DNA of 64,000 bases from the NCBI GenBank assembly GCA_050950765.1, contig JBMNIF010000002.1, forward strand, positions 694,157-758,156. The letters run 5' to 3'. Below are positions 1,371-10,270 of the stretch, piece by piece. Source of the DNA: Bdellovibrionota bacterium (GTDB lineage: Bacteria; Bdellovibrionota_C; UBA2361; JAAYZI01). The first letter of the stretch is position 1; each line of letters begins with the position of its first letter. Position numbers and translations under genes: made by a program. The notes under the pieces were generated by a model. It saw only the letters and a program-made list of their open reading frames with translations. It searched no databases and was not told where the DNA came from.

Positions 1371-1862
1371 ATGGTATTTAATAAAGTCAAAAAATTTCCA
1401 GGTTTAAAGATGAAGAAACTTGCAGGTGGCAAACATCCTGTAAAGTTAGTAGAGGAGTTTATTACTAAGCGCGGCTTCGATCCGAACGTTTGTCTTAGTG
1501 AAAAAACAGCCGATACTGTGCGTTGGATGCTTAAACTTGGTGATGAAGAAGAGCTTGAAGTTTTAGTCGAAGGTTTAACGAAACCGGCAGAAACTACTAT
1601 TTATATGGGGGTGAATATCGCAACCGTACCTATTCGGGGTGCCCTTGATATGTTGGTTTCGGCGTTAGAGATTGCAGATGGGTTGGTTGGGATAAAAGTT
1701 AGTTTAGTCGGACATTTTCTAGTATTAAGTGCCAGCTTAGGACTCTCCGGAGTTTCAGTAGATGATCTAGAGTATAATTATAACCTAATCGAGGCGCAAC
1801 AAGCTTGGTTTAAAAACGCTCTTTCCGAAGAGTTAGGGTTAGAAAATTTCTCAGAAGAATAA
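1371..1862 (+). CDS. Hypothetical protein (163 aa), function unknown
   Basis: Intact ORF divergent from purM; no motif I recognise. Its last 16 codons plus stop lie inside the 81-bp tandem repeat at 1812-2024. Confidence 0.5.
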   Translation: MVFNKVKKFPGLKMKKLAGGKHPVKLVEEFITKRGFDPNVCLSEKTADTVRWMLKLGDEEELEVLVEGLTKPAETTIYMGVNIATVPIRGALDMLVSALEIADGLVGIKVSLVGHFLVLSASLGLSGVSVDDLEYNYNLIEAQQAWFKNALSEELGLENFSEE

Positions 1863-2024
1863 TTTTACTATGCGCCTTTAAGTGGGAGAGGAAAAAATGC
1901 TCTTTCCGAAGAGTTAGGATTAGAAAATTTCTCAGAAGAATAATTTTACTATGCGCCTTTAAGTGGGAGAGGAAAAAATGCTCTTTCTGAAGAGTTAGGA
2001 TTAGAAAATTTCTCTGAAGAATAA
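1812..2024. repeat. Tandem direct repeat, about 81-bp unit, about 2.5 copies
   Basis: Unit GCTCTTTCCGAAGAGTTAGG(G/A)TTAGAAAATTTCTCAGAAGAATAATTTTACTATGCGCCTTTAAGTGGGAGAGGAAAAAAT repeats at about 1818, 1899 and 1980 (third copy partial, with two substitutions). Each copy carries the in-frame C-terminus ...ALSEELGLENFSEE-stop of the 1371-1862 ORF. Confidence 0.85.
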
Positions 2025-4261: not shown

Positions 4262-5920
4262 TTATTGTGGTGTGCTGGCTTGTAGTTTGCTAGCAGCTAT
4301 AATAGCTTGGTCAGCGCTCCAGAAGATATGATCTGCGCCGATATCTTCTATTAAGCCACCTCTTTGCAACATCTCTTCTACTTTGGGGTTTAAGCCTGCT
4401 AACATCAATCCACCCCCTGCCGCCTGTAAACGATCGTTTAGTTTTTCAAGTACTCTTAGACCTGAAGAATCGATAAAGGGCATGCCGCGTATTGAAAGCA
4501 CCAGATATTTTATGCCGTCAATATTAGCAAAGGCTTCATTGAAATAACTTGTTGCTGCAAAGAAGAGTGGTCCATACAGGTAGGCAACTTTAATATTTTT
4601 ACAACCGTGACAGACTTCAAGACCTTTTTTAATAAGCTTATCACTATCAACATCTTCAATTACAATATCTATTTCAGAAACTTGGTTAAGGAAGATTAAA
4701 GCAGAAAATATAGATCCGACAAGGATAGCTTGTGTAAGATCCAACACGATTGTAGCGAGTAGTGTAATTAAAAAGGCAGCAATTCCAGTTTTAAATTTCT
4801 TAGAAAAATAAAAATGGATAGCATCCCATTCATTCATGCGCCAAGCTGTAACTAATAGCACGCCTGCTAAGGCAGCCATCGGAACTTTTGAAATGATACC
4901 ACTAAGTAAAAACATAGATGCCATTAAAATGATGGCGTGAATGATGCTTGCCATGCGGGTTTGTCCACCGGAAGTAATACCGATAGAGCTACGTGCAATT
5001 GCTGCTGTGGCGGGTATGCCGCCCATAAAAGGAATTAAGATATTTCCGACACCTTGTGCTATTAACTCTTGGTTGGCACGTAATCTGATACCTGTCATAT
5101 TACCGCCGACGGCTCCGCACAGTAAACTTTCAACCGCTCCTAAAGCTGCGATAGCCATAGCGGGAGCGATGAAGACCTGTAGATTATCCCACGGCATCTG
5201 AGAAAATGAAAAATGATCGTCAAGAAAAAGCGATCGCGGGATCTCTCCGATCTTAGCAATGGGGAGACTGAGCCCTTCACTTATTATAGTTGCTAAGATA
5301 ATACCCACTAATGAAGATGGAACTTTAGCATTCCACTTTTTAGGCCAAAAGATCATAAAGGCGATAACAAGGCAACTTATTATCAAAGATGATGGATCAG
5401 GGGTTGGAAGCTCTTTAATATACCACAACACTTTGCCTACGGCGGTGGTTGTTGGTGCACTTTTAACACCAAAAAAATTATCGAGTTGTCCGAATACGAT
5501 GGACAAAGCTATGCCGGAGGTAAACCCTGTAATAACAGGAGCCGGAACAAAAGCGATAAAGCGTCCTAATTTTAAAATACCGATCAGGAGTAAGAAGATA
5601 CCGGCGAGTAGCCCAGCCACCCAGATCCCTTCCATCCCGTATTGTTGAGCAAGTGGAATTAGAATTGGACACATAGCACCGGTGGGACCTGAGATCTGAT
5701 ACGGTGCGCCGGAAAGGGCTCCGATAACTAAGCCTGCAACTATGGCTGTAACTAAACCTGCTGCTGCACTTGCTCCGGAAGCTGTACCAAAAGCCAAAGC
5801 TAAGGGTAGTGCGACAGCTGCTACGGTGCAGGCTGCAAAGAGGTCTTGGACAAATTTCTGTTTTGAATAATTACTAAACTCTCGGCGGTACAGTCCCACC
5901 AAACTGTGATCTTTTATCAT
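4262..5920 (-). CDS. SulP-family anion (sulfate) permease with C-terminal STAS domain
   Basis: 552-aa polytopic protein with many Gly/Ala-rich helices and a C-terminal soluble domain (...VAYLYGPLFFAATSYFNEAF...IRGMPFIDSSGLRVLEKL...) typical of SLC26/SulP STAS domains. Confidence 0.85.
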   Translation of the reverse strand: MIKDHSLVGLYRREFSNYSKQKFVQDLFAACTVAAVALPLALAFGTASGASAAAGLVTAIVAGLVIGALSGAPYQISGPTGAMCPILIPLAQQYGMEGIWVAGLLAGIFLLLIGILKLGRFIAFVPAPVITGFTSGIALSIVFGQLDNFFGVKSAPTTTAVGKVLWYIKELPTPDPSSLIISCLVIAFMIFWPKKWNAKVPSSLVGIILATIISEGLSLPIAKIGEIPRSLFLDDHFSFSQMPWDNLQVFIAPAMAIAALGAVESLLCGAVGGNMTGIRLRANQELIAQGVGNILIPFMGGIPATAAIARSSIGITSGGQTRMASIIHAIILMASMFLLSGIISKVPMAALAGVLLVTAWRMNEWDAIHFYFSKKFKTGIAAFLITLLATIVLDLTQAILVGSIFSALIFLNQVSEIDIVIEDVDSDKLIKKGLEVCHGCKNIKVAYLYGPLFFAATSYFNEAFANIDGIKYLVLSIRGMPFIDSSGLRVLEKLNDRLQAAGGGLMLAGLNPKVEEMLQRGGLIEDIGADHIFWSADQAIIAASKLQASTPQ

Positions 5921-6083
5921 AATTTAACCTGTAAAGTAGTTTTTTGTGTTTTGTCTAAAATTACTGATTCCTGTTCGTACCGATCTTCCTTCTTGTACCG
6001 ATTGTGCCGATTTTTTACCTGTAATCTTGACGCATTGGAAAAATGAACTGCTTTGTGTTTATGCCATCTATGGATAGAAAACT

Positions 6084-6245
6084 CAATATTGTTAGGTAAA
6101 AACTTCAAGGTAGCCGTCTTTAAGCTGAATGTTGTTAGGTAAAAAAACTTTAAGGTGCCTGTCTTTAAGCTCAATGTTGTTAGGTAAAAAAACTTCAAGG
6201 TGCCCGTCTTTAAACTGAATGTTGTTAAGTAAAAACTTCACACTT
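6084..6245. repeat. Intergenic tandem direct repeat, about 46-48-bp unit, about 3.5 copies
   Basis: Unit AATGTTGTTAGGTAAAAA(AA)CTTCAAGGTGCC(C/T)GTCTTTAAGCTG repeats head-to-tail with a few substitutions between the SulP start and the methyltransferase 3' end. The track ORF 5917-6198 (MKFFYLTTLSLKTGTLKFFYLTT...) is simply its translation. Confidence 0.8.
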
Positions 6246-6341
6246 AAAACGGATCGTAACAATTATGAGGATGAGATAAGTGATATCAAGTGTGTTTACA
6301 AGGTTTGATAAAGGTAGCGGAAGGGGCTTCATCTATTTTTT

Positions 6342-7281
6342 TCATATATATCTCGCTAAAATTCCGTCACAGGTCTCAACGGACATATTTCGAACACTGA
6401 TTAGTTCATTTCCCATGTTTTCAATGGATTCCATAGATGGTACGGGCATGGAGTTAATTTCAGTTGAATTTACTTGGGTAGAGCCGTTCAGAATTCTATA
6501 ATACTGATCATACAGGGTGGAGTTAAATATGACATATAATCCAAACACAACACATTCTGATAAATCCTTAAGTCCTGTTATAAAGTTTAATTTGTTTTGA
6601 GTGCTTATTGTATCTAGTTCCGGATACTTTCTTGCGAGGTAAACTGCAGACTGTAAGCGTCTTGGTTCTTCTTTAGAAGTAAATCTCTTTACAAAAAGAT
6701 AGTTGCTGTTATTTTGTAATAGTCTAGGTCGTTTTTTTAATATAAACTCCTCTTCTCGTCCTATCGGAAATTCAACTTTTCCATTTTTTATATGTTGAGG
6801 ATAGAACAAGGGGACAGAATTCTCTTCATAATCGTCTACAAGATAATCTTTGTTCCTATAATTTACGGTAAGCCCCGTTTTCATTTTAAGCCCTAAATCA
6901 GGAAGGGTGTTATCAAATACAGATAGTTTTTCCAGAACTTTTAATTCATCTCGGTTGGTAACTAGATAAACATACTTATCTTCTCCAGATACAATGATAT
7001 TATAAGGAACTTTAAATTCATTAGTTTCAGTAAACGAGTTGCTATCAATTGATGTTGAAATGGTAATTTTTTTCAACTTTTCATTAGTTTTTTTAGCCTT
7101 TAGGATCATAGTTTCTTGCAATACATTTTCTTGAGTGAAGACCCTATCTCGACTTTCAAATAAGTGTATATGTTCCAGAGAAGCTTCTTTTAAGAATTTC
7201 TTTCTGAATTTTGTGAAATAAGCTCCTGATGTCCAAGATCTTGGAATAATATAAACTAACTCACCACCATCTATTAGATTA
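6342..7281 (-). pseudogene. C-terminal fragment (target-recognition region) of an IS-interrupted gamma-class N6-adenine DNA methyltransferase
   Basis: Track ORF 6342-7121 continues in frame upstream to the IS boundary (...GNLIDGGELVYIIPRSWTSGAYFTKFRKKFLKEASLEHIHLF...). This joins in frame to the N-terminal fragment once the IS and one target duplication are removed. Strongly AT-rich coding sequence. Confidence 0.7.
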
Positions 7282-9128
7282 CCTAAATTCCCGTTTTTTT
7301 TATAGTCTACACCTTAGTATTTAATATTTTATCGACAAAAATCTTCTGGTCAATTTCTAATGCTTCTAAAATATCTTTTTGTTTTTTTGTTAATGGCTGT
7401 AGTAGCATGCTCAGATTTTCATTATCTATGCGTCTTATCATTTTAAGCGCTTCTAAAACTCTCTGAATGGTTTTTTCTACTTTTTTGTTATTATTATTTA
7501 TAGTTCTTTGTAAGTCTGACCACATAATTAAGCTAAGAAAGGAGACGAAGCTTTTGCCGTCAGTAGTTTTTTCATTATGTGTTAGCATACGGTCATTATC
7601 CAATTCATTTTTTAAATTATCGAAAGCTTTCTCAATAAAGTCTCGTCGTGAATAGATATGAAGTGCTTCTTGTGGTGTCATTGTTGAGTGGTTACTCAAA
7701 AAAGCAAAAACTCCTAGCATAGATAAGATATCGGTAATTTTTTCATGATCCCTTTCAAAACTTTCTAACTGCACTTCTTTCTTAGTTTTTATTTTGTAGT
7801 ATTTAGAGTAGCGACTCATACTCATAGGCTTTTTCATTTCTTTTAGTTCATCTTCTAATCTGTCAATATGAGAGTAAAGAGTGCTCTCTTCCTCAGATGC
7901 ACTTTTTGTATTTAAGTAAACGTAGAGAGAAAATTTTTCTCCATTTATCACAATATCTTTTCTTACCCCATAACAATTTGTCCCAGATATGTGATTCCTA
8001 GAAGAGCGAAGAGTAACAGATGCTTCCCTCATAGTATCGTTGTAATTTTTCTGAGATTTAGGAACAGCTACGAGAAATTCTATTTGCTCTTTTTTTATAT
8101 ATTCTAAATTTTCTTTTGTAATAAAACCTCTATCCAGAACATAAAATATATCATCAATACCTAAGCTTTTAGAGTATTCCATCATTGTTGTAAGAAAAAC
8201 TTTATCAACAACACTTCCACTGTAAAGAAAAAAACTTATTGGTAAATTGCTGTCGGTAGCGTATAAAAGTCCGACATTTAGTTGTGGTAAATATTCTTTG
8301 TCTCTATTGTATCCATTCTCGGCAAGTGGCAAGTCTGCATAAGTAGAAAGGCTCGTAACATCATAAGCTACAGTCTCATTGTTTTTCATAGCATAGTTTT
8401 TCCACACAGAAAAAAACTTCATTTGATCTTGTTTGGTAATCGATGAAAAAAGCTCACTTGTCTTTTGCGAAGATAGAGATATGTTTTTAGGGGTAAGAGT
8501 ATTTTGCGAAAAATTATCTATATTCATCATTACATTGCCTTCGTAAGCCATGTATAACGCAGTATAAAAGATATCTTCGTATTTATCGGGGAAGATTGTT
8601 TTTAAGCATTTTAATAACCCTATAGCCTCAGCTCTCATCTTTAATGCGACTACGTGACCTGCGTCCCAAACAAAGCGAGAAGAAGCTAGATCAATAACGT
8701 CAGATGGCATTGGATAATATTTTCTAAAGTTCTCATTAGGAATCATTCTTCCTTGTCTATCAGGGTCTATCTTTCCCACAATCACTTCATCACAAGTAGG
8801 TGTGCCGTTTTTATTACGACGATGACCAAGTACGTGATACACATATTTTACGTTTCCTTTGCTATCTTTTTTATACGAAATCTTTTTTTCTGGAATTGGA
8901 ATTGAAATATTTATTAAAGCCATTTTGTCTCCTATTTTTTTACTGTCTCGTAGACTACGGAAGTATAGTCTACAAAGCAAAAGATGTCAATAGTTTTTTT
9001 AAAAAAATTAAAAAAACTTTTATAAAAAAACTTAATTAAATAAGTATGTTGGAGGAAATATAATATTAGAAAATCTAAATATGAAATTAAATTATTGATA
9101 TGGACTACATAAAAAACGGGAATTTAGG
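7282..9128 (-). mobile_element. Insertion sequence, IS4-superfamily (IS1634-like), 1,847 bp, with terminal inverted repeats and 7-bp target-site duplication
   Basis: Left end 7282-7299 CCTAAATTCCCGTTTTTT; right end 9111-9128 is its exact reverse complement (AAAAAACGGGAATTTAGG); the match continues imperfectly to about 30 bp. Direct repeat TAGATTA at 7275-7281 and 9129-9135. Single DDE transposase ORF inside. Confidence 0.8.
7307..8923 (-). CDS. DDE transposase, IS4/IS1634 family
   Basis: About 538 aa from the probable start MALINISIPIPEKK (AGGAG RBS upstream; the track ORF starts 57 nt further up at 8980). Candidate catalytic triad regions: ...VAYDVTSLSTYA..., ...FYVLDRGFITK..., ...HIYSRRDFIEKAFDNLKNEL... 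(Y-x2-R-x3-E-x6-K signature). Confidence 0.85.
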   Translation of the reverse strand: MALINISIPIPEKKISYKKDSKGNVKYVYHVLGHRRNKNGTPTCDEVIVGKIDPDRQGRMIPNENFRKYYPMPSDVIDLASSRFVWDAGHVVALKMRAEAIGLLKCLKTIFPDKYEDIFYTALYMAYEGNVMMNIDNFSQNTLTPKNISLSSQKTSELFSSITKQDQMKFFSVWKNYAMKNNETVAYDVTSLSTYADLPLAENGYNRDKEYLPQLNVGLLYATDSNLPISFFLYSGSVVDKVFLTTMMEYSKSLGIDDIFYVLDRGFITKENLEYIKKEQIEFLVAVPKSQKNYNDTMREASVTLRSSRNHISGTNCYGVRKDIVINGEKFSLYVYLNTKSASEEESTLYSHIDRLEDELKEMKKPMSMSRYSKYYKIKTKKEVQLESFERDHEKITDILSMLGVFAFLSNHSTMTPQEALHIYSRRDFIEKAFDNLKNELDNDRMLTHNEKTTDGKSFVSFLSLIMWSDLQRTINNNNKKVEKTIQRVLEALKMIRRIDNENLSMLLQPLTKKQKDILEALEIDQKIFVDKILNTKV

Positions 9129-9680
9129 TAGATTAAATACGGACATACCCATAAATAGGAAATATAGATTCGGCGCTCCATAGCAGATATCTTGCATAGA
9201 TCGGGCTTCCGATTCATTTTTTCCTATTTTCAAATACGGAGGGTTTCCTATAACCAAATCATATTTTTGAGGATTAGAGCAGGCTCCCAACATTCCATTG
9301 TATTCAAAACTCTGACTATTGATGTAGTTCTTAGTTATTATAGAAAACTTCAACTCTATGTTTATAGTCTCTTTAATCCAAGAAAGATTGTCTTTTAGTA
9401 CAGGAATGACTTCTTTATCGGTTTCATAGCAAGTTAAAATTATTCTTTTCACCTTTGATGATTTACATATTCTTTCTATTAAGGCAGAGCTTAAAATTCC
9501 TGTACCCGCTCCTGGATCTAGGATATGCAATTCTTCTTTTTGTGGTATTTCAAATAAATTTGCCATGAAAACAGCTATTTCTTTGCTGGTAAAGAATTGT
9601 CCATAAGATTTTCTGTTTTCTTTGGATTTAGATTCAACATATACATTTGTTGAATTTTCAACATAATCAACGATCTTCAT
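9129..9680 (-). pseudogene. N-terminal fragment (catalytic domain) of the IS-interrupted gamma-class N6-adenine DNA methyltransferase (Eco57I/TaqI-like)
   Basis: Contains ...GQFFTSKEIAVFMANL... , ...HILDPGAGTGILSSAL... (AdoMet motif I) and ...DLVIGNPPYLKIG... (NPPY motif IV). Track ORF 9105-9680 reads on into the IS terminal repeat before stopping. Confidence 0.75.
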
Positions 9681-9861
9681 TCCTTACCACCTTTATAATA
9701 TCTGAAATGTCACAATTCAAAACGGCACATATTGGCAATAAGAACTCCGTCGTAACATTTTCCGATTTTTTTATTTTATAAAAAGTGCTTCTACTTATAT
9801 ACTCACGTTTCATTAAGTCTTTATTAGTCATATCTTCATCGATTAATCTTTTAAACAACAT
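9667..9861 (-). CDS. Small HTH (XRE-family) transcriptional regulator, possibly a controller (C) protein of a restriction-modification module
   Basis: 64 aa; ...TNKDLMKREYISRSTFYKIKKSENVTTEFLLPICAVLNCDISDI... fits a helix-turn-helix XRE pattern. Its 3' end overlaps the methyltransferase start by 14 nt on the same strand. Confidence 0.6.
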   Translation of the reverse strand: MLFKRLIDEDMTNKDLMKREYISRSTFYKIKKSENVTTEFLLPICAVLNCDISDIIKVVRNEDR

Positions 9862-10270
9862 TCATAGGAAAGATCAATTTTTGAAGACACGCCAGCCCCT
9901 CTAATCTCTTCTTGCTTTATCTGTTAATTATATCACATTCCTCACTTAAGCTATTACAAAGTTACTTTTTTCTTGAACTTTTTCATTGATAAAAAACAGA
10001 TGGTCTGAAGATCCGTCCAATTTTCTATCCTAGCTCCCGTGTGTTGTTTCCATAAATTGCTTTATGCGTAAGCGTTGAACACTTATTGCTACTTGTGTTC
10101 TTAGAAAAAAAGATAAAAATGTTTAGAGTGTTTGTGTTAAAGATAAAGAGGTGCAGATATCTGTTGAGGCTACCTTGAATGACCTTTGGATGATTTGTAA
10201 CTGATTGTAATAATAGTAGTTTTGCTTTTTAGGGATTTACTGGAATATTTATTTTTTATACAGAGAAGGG

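What the first reader, a model, noticed from the sequence alone, without database searches (positions are those of the whole stretch)
7275..9135. Precisely delimited, apparently recent IS insertion splitting a DNA methyltransferase gene
An 1,847-bp element (7282-9128) has 18-bp perfect terminal inverted repeats (CCTAAATTCCCGTTTTTT and its reverse complement; similarity continues imperfectly to about 30 bp) and is flanked by a 7-bp direct duplication TAGATTA (7275-7281 and 9129-9135). Deleting the element plus one duplication fuses the two flanking ORF fragments in frame (...GAPNLYFLFMGMSVFN|LIDGGELVYIIPRSWTSG...) into a roughly 494-codon gene. The internal ORF is a DDE transposase with an IS4/IS1634-type Y-x2-R-x3-E-x6-K signature. 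Intact repeats, an intact duplication and an undamaged target gene all point to a recent event.
Basis: seen in the sequence. Interest (0 to 1): 0.55.

Follow-up and report, generated by a model that had tools for sequence, protein, structure and literature searches.

The report
IS insertion in an orphaned methylase gene
A 1.8-kb jumping gene (an IS1634-family insertion sequence) has landed cleanly inside the DNA methylase gene of a PstI/BsuBI-type restriction-modification cassette that had already lost its restriction enzyme; this is an ordinary stage in the decay of a defence system.

Summary
The element spans 7282-9128 (1,847 bp). It has 18-bp perfect terminal inverted repeats and a 7-bp target duplication, TAGATTA. 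It carries one intact 538-aa transposase, which scores 231 bits against the NCBIfam IS1634 model (cut-off 100) and has its DDE residues and a full Y-2-R-3-E-6-K motif.

Removing the element plus one duplication restores a 494-aa Eco57I-domain N6-adenine methylase. That protein aligns without gaps across the junction to 120 homologues of 488-517 aa.

Three points are new.
- In 6 of 6 homologue loci the methylase sits in a (C)-M-R cassette with a BsuBI/PstI-family endonuclease. Here only the first 7 codons of R survive, so M was probably already an orphan and losing it was probably harmless.
- The source is a Bdellovibrionota MAG whose annotated proteins indicate at least six copies of this IS. 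A separately assembled contig carries a copy that differs by 1 nt in 1,847.
- Both junctions recur at 100% identity in independent metagenome assemblies, and no empty site was found.

"Recent" is therefore plausible but only relative. This is a previously unnamed IS of a known family doing a known thing, so interest is low.

The parts
7282..9128 (-). Insertion sequence, 1,847 bp, IS1634 family, 31% G+C. It lies in the same orientation as the interrupted gene.
   Evidence: There is no other copy or fragment in the window.
9111..9128 (.). Left terminal inverted repeat (on the transposase-upstream side), CCTAAATTCCCGTTTTTT read inward. It fits the family end consensus C-----YT.
   Evidence: consensus from PMC2266710.
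7282..7299 (.). Right terminal inverted repeat, a perfect 18-bp match to the left one. The similarity continues imperfectly to about 26-28 bp.
7275..7281 (.). Target-site duplication TAGATTA, copy 1.
9129..9135 (.). Target-site duplication TAGATTA, copy 2.
7307..8923 (-). Transposase, 538 aa, intact. Catalytic residues are D188, D264 and E431, with Y424-R427-E431-K438. A GGAG motif lies a few bases upstream of the ATG.
   Evidence: NCBIfam NF033559 IS1634, 231 bits against a cut-off of 100. Pfam DDE_Tnp_1. Conserved columns across 116 relatives. Relatives are 534-538 aa long. The identical protein is annotated 'IS1634 family transposase [Bdellovibrionota bacterium]'.
8962..8990 (-). Promoter-like site, TTGACA-17-TATACT (11 of 12 matches), about 40 bp upstream of the transposase ATG. 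This is a consensus match only.
   Evidence: The total number of such sites in the region is not above the shuffles.
9136..9680 (-). 5' part of the methyltransferase gene (residues 1-184 together with the duplicated heptamer). It holds motif I (LDPGAGTG) and motif IV (NPPY). As it stands, the frame runs 7 codons into the IS and stops at 9105, giving a 191-aa product.
   Evidence: The 191-aa product is annotated as 'N-6 DNA methylase' in the MAG.
6342..7281 (-). 3' part of the methyltransferase gene (residues 185-494). It holds the rest of the Eco57I catalytic domain and the target-recognition region.
9667..9861 (-). Small HTH_26 (Cro/C1-type) gene, 64 aa, overlapping the methylase start by 14 nt. 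It is the controller-like first gene of the cassette.
   Evidence: Pfam HTH_26, 48 bits. The same gene sits in the same position in 4 of 6 homologue loci.
6325..6345 (-). Vestige of the restriction endonuclease gene. An ATG overlaps the methylase stop (ATGA), followed by MKKIDEA; homologues read MSKLDEA or MPKLEEA. Similarity stops after codon 7.
   Evidence: the DNA alignment with L065 ends at GAAGC. A regex for the R N-terminus hits once in six frames of 64 kb, against 0.05 expected. No other trace of R is found in the window.
6085..6235 (.). 45-bp tandem repeat, 3.4 copies, lying in the space where R would be. It is probably a genome-specific intergenic repeat and not part of the IS.
   Evidence: Its motif is shared with the flank of the second IS copy, L003.

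Best explanation
A horizontally acquired, low-G+C (about 30-33%) type II restriction-modification cassette of the PstI/BsuBI kind sits in a roughly 40% G+C chromosome of an uncultured Bdellovibrionota bacterium. The cassette order is HTH controller, then a gamma-class N6-adenine methylase, then the endonuclease.

The endonuclease gene was deleted, leaving only its first 7 codons. The methylase, by then an orphan and dispensable, was hit by a cut-and-paste DDE insertion sequence of the IS1634 family that is multi-copy in this genome. The transposase made staggered cuts 7 bp apart at TAGATTA, inside the catalytic domain 35 residues after NPPY. Repair of those cuts produced the 7-bp duplication.

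The gene is now split into a 191-aa N-terminal product and a C-terminal part with no start codon, so the methylase should be inactive.

Shown here: the element, its ends, the duplication, the family of the transposase, the restoration of the gene, the loss of R, the multiple copies, and the recurrence of both junctions in independent assemblies.

Inferred: the order of events (R lost first), CTGCAG as the original specificity, the transposition chemistry, and recency.
For: - Element and reconstruction.
- Transposase family and catalytic residues. The size (1,847 bp) and the ends (CCTAAATT against C-----YT) fit the published family description (PMC2266710).
- Cassette context: 6 of 6 distinct homologue loci have a 305-306-aa BsuBI_PstI_RE gene overlapping the methylase stop, and 4 of 6 have HTH_26 upstream.
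- Loss of R: the window has no R apart from a 7-codon vestige at the exact ATGA overlap.
- Link to characterised enzymes: the methylase is 30% identical over 96% of its length to the Stx2a-prophage methylase. Enzymes of that type methylate CTGCAG (PMC3893438).
- Foreign origin: the island is 28-35% G+C against 40% for the window.
- The insertion is not an assembly artefact: the right junction is 100% identical in L004 and L006, and the left junction in L055-L057.
- Multi-copy and active: a second copy, L003, has 1 mismatch in 1,847 nt and different flanks. Six transposase entries from one MAG are on record: 2 identical, 2 with 4 aa changes and 2 truncated. Short-read contigs break at the IS.
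Against: - The target duplication is 7 bp, whereas the family norm is 5-6 bp (PMC2266710). Only this one copy has both flanks readable. The second copy (L003) shows no duplication at all, but its right flank is only 33 bp and the contig may be chimeric.
- The order 'R lost first' is inferred from the known lethality of losing M while R is active. It was not observed.
- CTGCAG is not clearly avoided in the window: 13 sites, observed/expected 0.59 by a third-order Markov model, rank 22 of 64 palindromes. There is therefore no independent sign that an active PstI-like system was ever resident for long.
- Recency is not demonstrated, because no empty site or intact allele was found anywhere.
Confidence: 0.92

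Rival explanations
1. Assembly artefact: the IS was placed inside the methylase gene because a repeated element was mis-joined, and the real genome carries an intact gene.
For: The IS is multi-copy, and short-read contigs break in it. One related contig (L003) may itself be chimeric.
Against: Both junctions, including the duplicated heptamer, are reproduced at 100% identity in several independent assemblies from JGI and Logan samples. No junction-spanning intact protein or empty-site 30-mer exists in the collections searched. A chance 7-bp duplication that also restores the frame and a gapless alignment is very unlikely.
Confidence: 0.02
2. An old, fixed insertion rather than a recent one. The IS has sat in a dead gene for a long time, and its neat appearance only reflects a slow mutation rate or gene conversion among copies.
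For: The insertion is present in every assembly of the locus across several samples, with no empty allele. R is already gone. The nearest relative of this cassette (L065) is a pseudogene pair, so decay is common in this lineage.
Against: Neither half of the methylase has a stop or a frameshift over 494 codons. Its unusual residues are shared with, or also variable in, its nearest relative, so they are not private damage. Both copies of the duplication and the 18-bp ends are perfect. The transposase is identical to another copy in the MAG, and the DNA of a separately assembled copy (L003) differs by 1 nt in 1,847. Other copies differ by 4 aa or are truncated.
Confidence: 0.25
3. The IS insertion came first and inactivated M while R was still active. 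R was then lost under selection, so the order of events is reversed.
For: Nothing in the sequence gives the order. Both lesions are present.
Against: Established knowledge of type II R-M systems (post-segregational killing, Kobayashi and colleagues; from my own knowledge) says that losing M while R is active causes chromosome cleavage. A lineage would survive only if R was already weak or another methylase covered the site. The R deletion lies about 940 bp from the IS end, so it is not an IS-adjacent deletion.
Confidence: 0.1

Closest known systems
IS1634 family insertion sequences (ISfinder family; IS1634 of Mycoplasma mycoides, IS1549 of Mycobacterium smegmatis; described in De Palmenaer et al. 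2008, PMC2266710)
   Same: It has a single long DDE transposase that scores well above the family cut-off. Its length lies within 1,500-2,000 bp. Its terminal inverted repeats start with C and have YT at positions 7-8. It has an A+T-rich target duplication and is multi-copy in its host.
   Different: The duplication is 7 bp rather than 5-6 bp. The full Y-2-R-3-E-6-K motif is present, whereas the R is found in only 5 of 32 family members. The closest source-named relative in the protein search is 49% identical (Proteiniclasticum). Annotated plasmid copies are at most 27% identical over the full length. By sequence it is therefore an unnamed IS.
PstI/BsuBI-type type II restriction-modification systems (CTGCAG; for example M.EcoGIII/R.EcoGIII of Stx2a prophages, PMC3893438)
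   Same: The methylase has the same architecture (Eco57I/N6_Mtase catalytic domain followed by a C-terminal recognition region, about 495 aa). It is 60-63% identical to methylases that are directly followed by BsuBI_PstI_RE endonucleases, and 30% identical to the Stx2a-phage enzyme.
   Different: Here the endonuclease is reduced to 7 codons and the methylase is split by the IS, so nothing functional is left except perhaps the small HTH gene. The specificity was not tested.
IS-disrupted or decayed R-M systems in general, and orphan methylases derived from them
   Same: The pattern is loss of R followed by loss of M. The nearest relative (L065) shows the same fate through stops and frameshifts in both genes.
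   Different: Nothing of principle. This locus simply preserves both lesions in a very clean state.

Membership tests
IS1634 family (insertion sequence) | The transposase matches the family profile above the curated cut-off, and better than it matches sister families. | tested here: met
   NF033559 scores 231 bits against a cut-off of 100. IS4_1 scores 45 against 115, and IS1380, IS982 and IS1182 are all far below their cut-offs.
IS1634 family (insertion sequence) | DDE catalytic triad with a long spacer between the second D and the E. | tested here: met
   D188, D264 and E431 are at least 97% conserved across 116 relatives. The D-to-E spacer is 167 residues.
IS1634 family (insertion sequence) | Element of 1,500-2,000 bp with terminal inverted repeats of consensus C-----YT. 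| tested here: met
   The element is 1,847 bp with ends CCTAAATT... and an 18-bp perfect repeat. The criteria come from PMC2266710.
IS1634 family (insertion sequence) | Target duplication of 5-6 bp, A+T-rich. This is typical of the family but not universal: IS1634 and IS1549 give 8-514 bp. | tested here: inconclusive
   The duplication is 7 bp (TAGATTA, 6 of 7 A/T) at the only copy with both flanks. L003 shows none. Ambiguity at the ends (TA on both sides) was considered and rejected, because the right flanks of L001, L002 and L003 do not start with TA.
IS1634 family (insertion sequence) | Incomplete YREK motif (the R is usually absent), the feature used to separate this family from IS4. | tested here: not met
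   The full motif Y424-x2-R427-x3-E431-x6-K438 is present. R427 does not reach 97% conservation among relatives. 5 of 32 described members also have the R, so this places the element in a minority of the family rather than outside it.
IS4 family (sensu stricto) | Profile match above cut-off and target duplications of about 8-13 bp. | tested here: not met
   The IS4 profiles score 45 and 18 bits against cut-offs of 115 and 152. The duplication is 7 bp.
PstI/BsuBI-type type II R-M system | Gamma-class N6-adenine methylase with an Eco57I/N6_Mtase domain, motif I and NPPY. | tested here: met
   After reconstruction, Pfam Eco57I scores 68 bits and N6_Mtase 39 bits. LDPGAGTG and NPPY are invariant in the alignment.
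PstI/BsuBI-type type II R-M system | An adjacent endonuclease gene with the BsuBI_PstI_RE domain. | tested here: not met
   It is absent from all 64 kb. Only a 7-codon vestige remains at 6345-6325. It is present in 6 of 6 homologue loci. The locus is a remnant of such a system, not a working member.
PstI/BsuBI-type type II R-M system | Recognition and methylation of CTGCAG. | not testable with these tools
   This is inferred only from the partner endonuclease family of the homologues and from 30% identity to the Stx2a-phage enzyme. Site counts in the window are uninformative.

The most novel reading that the evidence does not exclude
This element and its few relatives could form a distinct branch of the IS1634 family. 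The relatives seen here are a handful of metagenome copies at 89-99% identity, then nothing closer than 61%. The branch would keep the complete IS4-type YREK motif and make 7-bp rather than 5-6-bp duplications. That would make it an intermediate between IS4 and the 'emerging' IS1634 family in how the target is attacked. Separately, the locus may be a polymorphic, very young insertion whose empty allele still exists in the population but was not assembled.
Probability: 0.12. Interest if true: 0.3.

Novelty: new member of a known kind. Interest (0 to 1): 0.15.

Why it matters
It matters little beyond annotation. The locus documents an unnamed, apparently active IS1634-family element in an uncultured Bdellovibrionota genome. 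It is also a tidy example of how a restriction-modification cassette dies: R is deleted first, then the orphan M is hit by an IS. For anyone annotating this MAG, the two 'methylase' fragments, the 93-aa repeat ORF and the 7-codon R stub should be marked as remnants, and no CTGCAG methylation should be expected. The 7-bp duplication and the complete YREK motif are small data points for IS4/IS1634 classification.

Tried and rejected
- A scan of GTDB representative genomes for the transposase found nothing. The source genome and this IS are not in that set.
- Mfd was used to place the organism. The best hit was only 54% identical, to an Oligoflexia MAG. The organism name finally came from the cluster look-up.
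- An exact 30-mer for the empty site found nothing in the JGI metagenome contigs.
- An exact 18-mer for the inverted repeat gave 37 loci. Of these, 35 are chance matches and 2 (L027, L043) are distant relatives at 77% over about 100 nt. No further insertion sites were gained.
- A tblastn search for the endonuclease in the window found nothing. The 7-codon vestige was found by reading the frame after the methylase stop, then tested.
- CTGCAG avoidance as a footprint of past restriction gave no clear signal.
- The methylase has 15 deviant residues at 217 conserved columns, against at most 8 in each of its homologues. I considered this as evidence of relaxed selection and rejected it. Seven of the 15 are shared with the nearest relative L065, and 6 more also vary there.
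- I looked for a long, variable duplication of the IS1634/IS1549 type in L003 and found none.
- I considered shifting the IS boundaries by the palindromic TA and rejected it.
- A sequence search of the PDB with the methylase gave no hit. An Rfam scan of the whole window gave no hit.
Their flanks could therefore not be read.
Full report
OBSERVATION

CCTAAATTCCCGTTTTTT occurs at 7282-7299 on the plus strand and at 9111-9128 on the minus strand. These are the only perfect matches in 64 kb, and none of 100 shuffles reached the observed 3 matches at up to 3 mismatches. The inverted similarity continues imperfectly to about 28 nt. TAGATTA flanks the element at 7275-7281 and 9129-9135.

The window holds no other copy or fragment of the element.

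THE ELEMENT

The element is 1,847 bp long and 31% G+C.

Its one long ORF is best read from the ATG at 8923, which has a GGAG motif a few bases upstream. This gives 538 aa, matching relatives of 534-538 aa. The protein hits Pfam DDE_Tnp_1. It scores 231 bits against the NCBIfam IS1634 equivalog, whose cut-off is 100. The IS4, IS1380, IS982 and IS1182 models all fall far below their cut-offs.

In an alignment with 116 relatives, D188, D264 and E431 are conserved, as are Y424 and K438. The motif YSRRDFIEKAFDNLK gives a complete Y-2-R-3-E-6-K.

The published family description (De Palmenaer et al. 2008, PMC2266710) lists these features for IS1634:
- length 1,500-2,000 bp;
- ends of consensus C-----YT;
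- A+T-rich duplications of 5-6 bp, with IS1634 and IS1549 as exceptions that produce long, variable ones;
- the R of YREK present in only 5 of 32 members.

This element fits on size and on ends (CCTAAATT). Its duplication is one base longer than usual, and it belongs to the minority that keeps the R.

The closest source-named relative in the protein search is 49% identical (Proteiniclasticum). Annotated plasmid copies are at most 27% identical over the full length. By sequence it is an unnamed member of a known family.

A strong promoter-like site (TTGACA-17-TATACT) lies about 40 bp upstream of the start codon. It is only a consensus match.

THE INTERRUPTED GENE

Joining 9680..9136 to 7281..6342 on the minus strand gives a 494-codon open frame.

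The two fragments match Pfam Eco57I positions 41-117 and 127-171 separately. The fused protein matches positions 44-171 in one stretch, at 68 bits.

The 120 best hits in the 5.8-billion-protein set are 488-517 aa long, 59-63% identical and cover 99-100% of the query. In a 121-sequence alignment no sequence has a gap within 10 residues of the junction. F182, N183, L184, G188 and E189 are invariant in the 10-sequence alignment.

The insertion lies 35 residues after NPPY, inside the catalytic domain. What remains is a 191-aa product (184 residues of the methylase plus 7 IS-encoded residues) and a 310-codon tail with no start codon.

CONTEXT: A REMNANT R-M CASSETTE

I looked at six distinct homologues in their contigs: L048, L051, L053, L059, L061 and L063. 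In all six, a 305-306-aa gene with the BsuBI_PstI_RE domains follows the methylase. It overlaps the methylase stop by 4-8 nt in five loci and by 68 nt in one. Four of the six also have a small HTH_26 gene overlapping the methylase start.

The window has the HTH_26 gene (9667-9861, overlapping the methylase start by 14 nt). It has no endonuclease anywhere in its 64 kb.

Reading on from the methylase stop, an ATG at 6345 overlaps that stop as ATGA, exactly as in L048 and L063. It encodes MKKIDEA, against MSKLEDA, MPKLEEA, MSKLEEA and MSKLDDA in the homologues. After that the sequence diverges. A permissive pattern for this N-terminus matches once in all six frames of the window, where 0.05 matches are expected.

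The DNA of the nearest relative (L065) aligns with the window from the methylase start through GAAGC of R codon 7 and no further. The endonuclease gene was therefore deleted from codon 8 onward.

The space between the stub and the next gene holds a 45-bp tandem repeat.

The whole island (about 6000-10000) is 28-35% G+C, against 40% for the window.

The methylase is 30% identical over 96% of its length to the methylase of Stx2a prophages. Enzymes of that type have been shown to methylate CTGCAG within a BsuBI/PstI system (PMC3893438). CTGCAG specificity here is inferred, not tested. Site counts in the window show no clear avoidance.

IS THE INSERTION REAL, AND HOW YOUNG IS IT?

- Right junction. 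It is 100% identical in a 99-kb JGI contig that begins inside the IS (L004), and in a Logan contig seen in four samples (L006).
- Left junction. Its 191-aa product needs IS sequence to terminate. That product is on seven contigs, and three of the four contigs read are 100% identical to the window over 10-11 kb.
- Variant contig. A fourth contig (L058) differs from the window only inside the IS. This indicates that several IS variants co-exist in that community.

The insertion is therefore not an assembly artefact.

An exact cluster look-up names the source as an NCBI MAG, 'Bdellovibrionota bacterium', with contigs of 1.25, 0.71 and 0.54 Mb. It lists six transposase entries. Two are identical to this one, two have 4 amino-acid changes, and two are truncated (466 and 307 aa). 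That all six belong to one assembly is inferred from their close accession numbers.

A JGI contig (L003) carries a copy with 1 mismatch in 1,847 nt, located downstream of a proA gene. Its flank has 41% G+C and contains the same rare repeat motif as the window. Two other contigs carry copies at 98.5% identity (L001) and at 89% identity, the latter truncated beside an ISL3 transposase (L002).

All of this fits an IS that has been moving recently, with this copy among the youngest.

Against a strong claim of recency, no empty site exists in the JGI contig collection. No intact orthologue is among the full-length hits, where the best is 63% identical. In a search with a 145-aa junction-spanning peptide, the only 100% match is the truncated N-fragment.

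'Recent' is thus plausible but relative. In the populations sampled the insertion looks fixed.

IS THE TARGET GENE UNDAMAGED?

At the level of the reading frame it is: there are no stops or frameshifts in 494 codons.

The gene shows 15 departures at 217 columns that are at least 95% conserved, against at most 8 in any of the 120 homologues. I first took this as a sign of relaxed selection. However, 7 of the 15 are shared with the nearest relative (L065, 69% identical), and 6 more also vary there. They are traits of this sub-lineage, not private decay.

L065 comes from a 31% G+C organism in the same sample series and is itself a dead cassette. Its methylase has four stops and a frameshift, and its endonuclease has an internal stop.

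MECHANISM

A DDE transposase of this superfamily excises or copies the element and joins its 3'-OH ends to staggered positions in the target. Repair of the 7-nt stagger gives the duplication. This rests on established knowledge of IS4-related transposases, and the 7-nt stagger is read from the sequence.

Losing a methylase while its endonuclease is active is normally lethal (post-segregational killing; my own knowledge). The most economical order of events is therefore acquisition of the cassette, then deletion of R, then IS insertion into the now dispensable M. The order is inferred. The reverse order is not excluded, and I give it about 0.1.

VERDICT

Both the observation and the interpretation hold. 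The added findings make the locus more ordinary, not less. It is an active, unnamed IS1634-family element inserted in the orphaned methylase of a decaying PstI/BsuBI-type cassette in an uncultured Bdellovibrionota genome.

Only two features are slightly unusual: the 7-bp duplication and the complete YREK motif.

Novelty: new member of a known kind. Interest: about 0.15.

Noticed in passing
window 6085-6235: A 45-bp tandem repeat (3.4 copies, 88% matches) fills the gap where the endonuclease gene should be. JGI gene calls place a probably spurious 93-aa ORF on it. Its core motif, GGCACC..AGTTTTTTWACCT, recurs in the repeats next to the second IS copy (L003 853-991) and in no other fetched locus.
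   Followed up: partly
window 1812-2024: An 81-bp tandem repeat (2.6 copies, 96% matches) lies overlapping the 3' end of a 163-aa ORF, upstream of a PmbA/TldD-like gene. Its function is unknown.
   Followed up: no
L065 2253-4626 (Logan SRR31061295, 12-kb contig, 31% G+C): This is the nearest relative of the window's methylase (69% aa identity). It belongs to a dead M-R pair in a different organism from the same sample series. M has 4 stops and a frameshift, and R has an internal stop. The pair sits next to a flagellar hook gene.
   Followed up: partly
L003 1017-2863 (JGI 3300049644): A second copy of the IS (1 mismatch in 1,847 nt) has no target duplication. Its left flank reads ...GATCCGTTA and its right flank ATGCTGCTG.... 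The right flank is only 33 bp long. This may reflect a chimeric assembly or recombination between copies.
   Followed up: partly
L002 442-3222 (NCBI GCA_046128275.1): An 89%-identical relative of the IS lacks its first roughly 315 bp and abuts an ISL3-family transposase gene. This is likely one IS inserted into another.
   Followed up: no
L059-L062, about 5400-7340: In two homologue contexts, the C-M-R cassette is followed directly by Thoeris-like genes (SIR2_2/STALD plus ThsB_TIR). These cassettes therefore travel in defence islands.
   Followed up: no
window 6000-10000: A low-G+C island (28-35%, against about 40% for the window) coincides with the C-M remnant plus the IS. The IS (31%) and the cassette (32.5%) are both more A+T-rich than the host.
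   Followed up: partly
window 7326-7353 (minus strand): A promoter-like site (TTGACC-16-TAAAAT, 10 of 12 matches) near the 3' end of the IS points outward into the methylase tail. It is a consensus match only, and no in-frame start follows closely.
   Followed up: no
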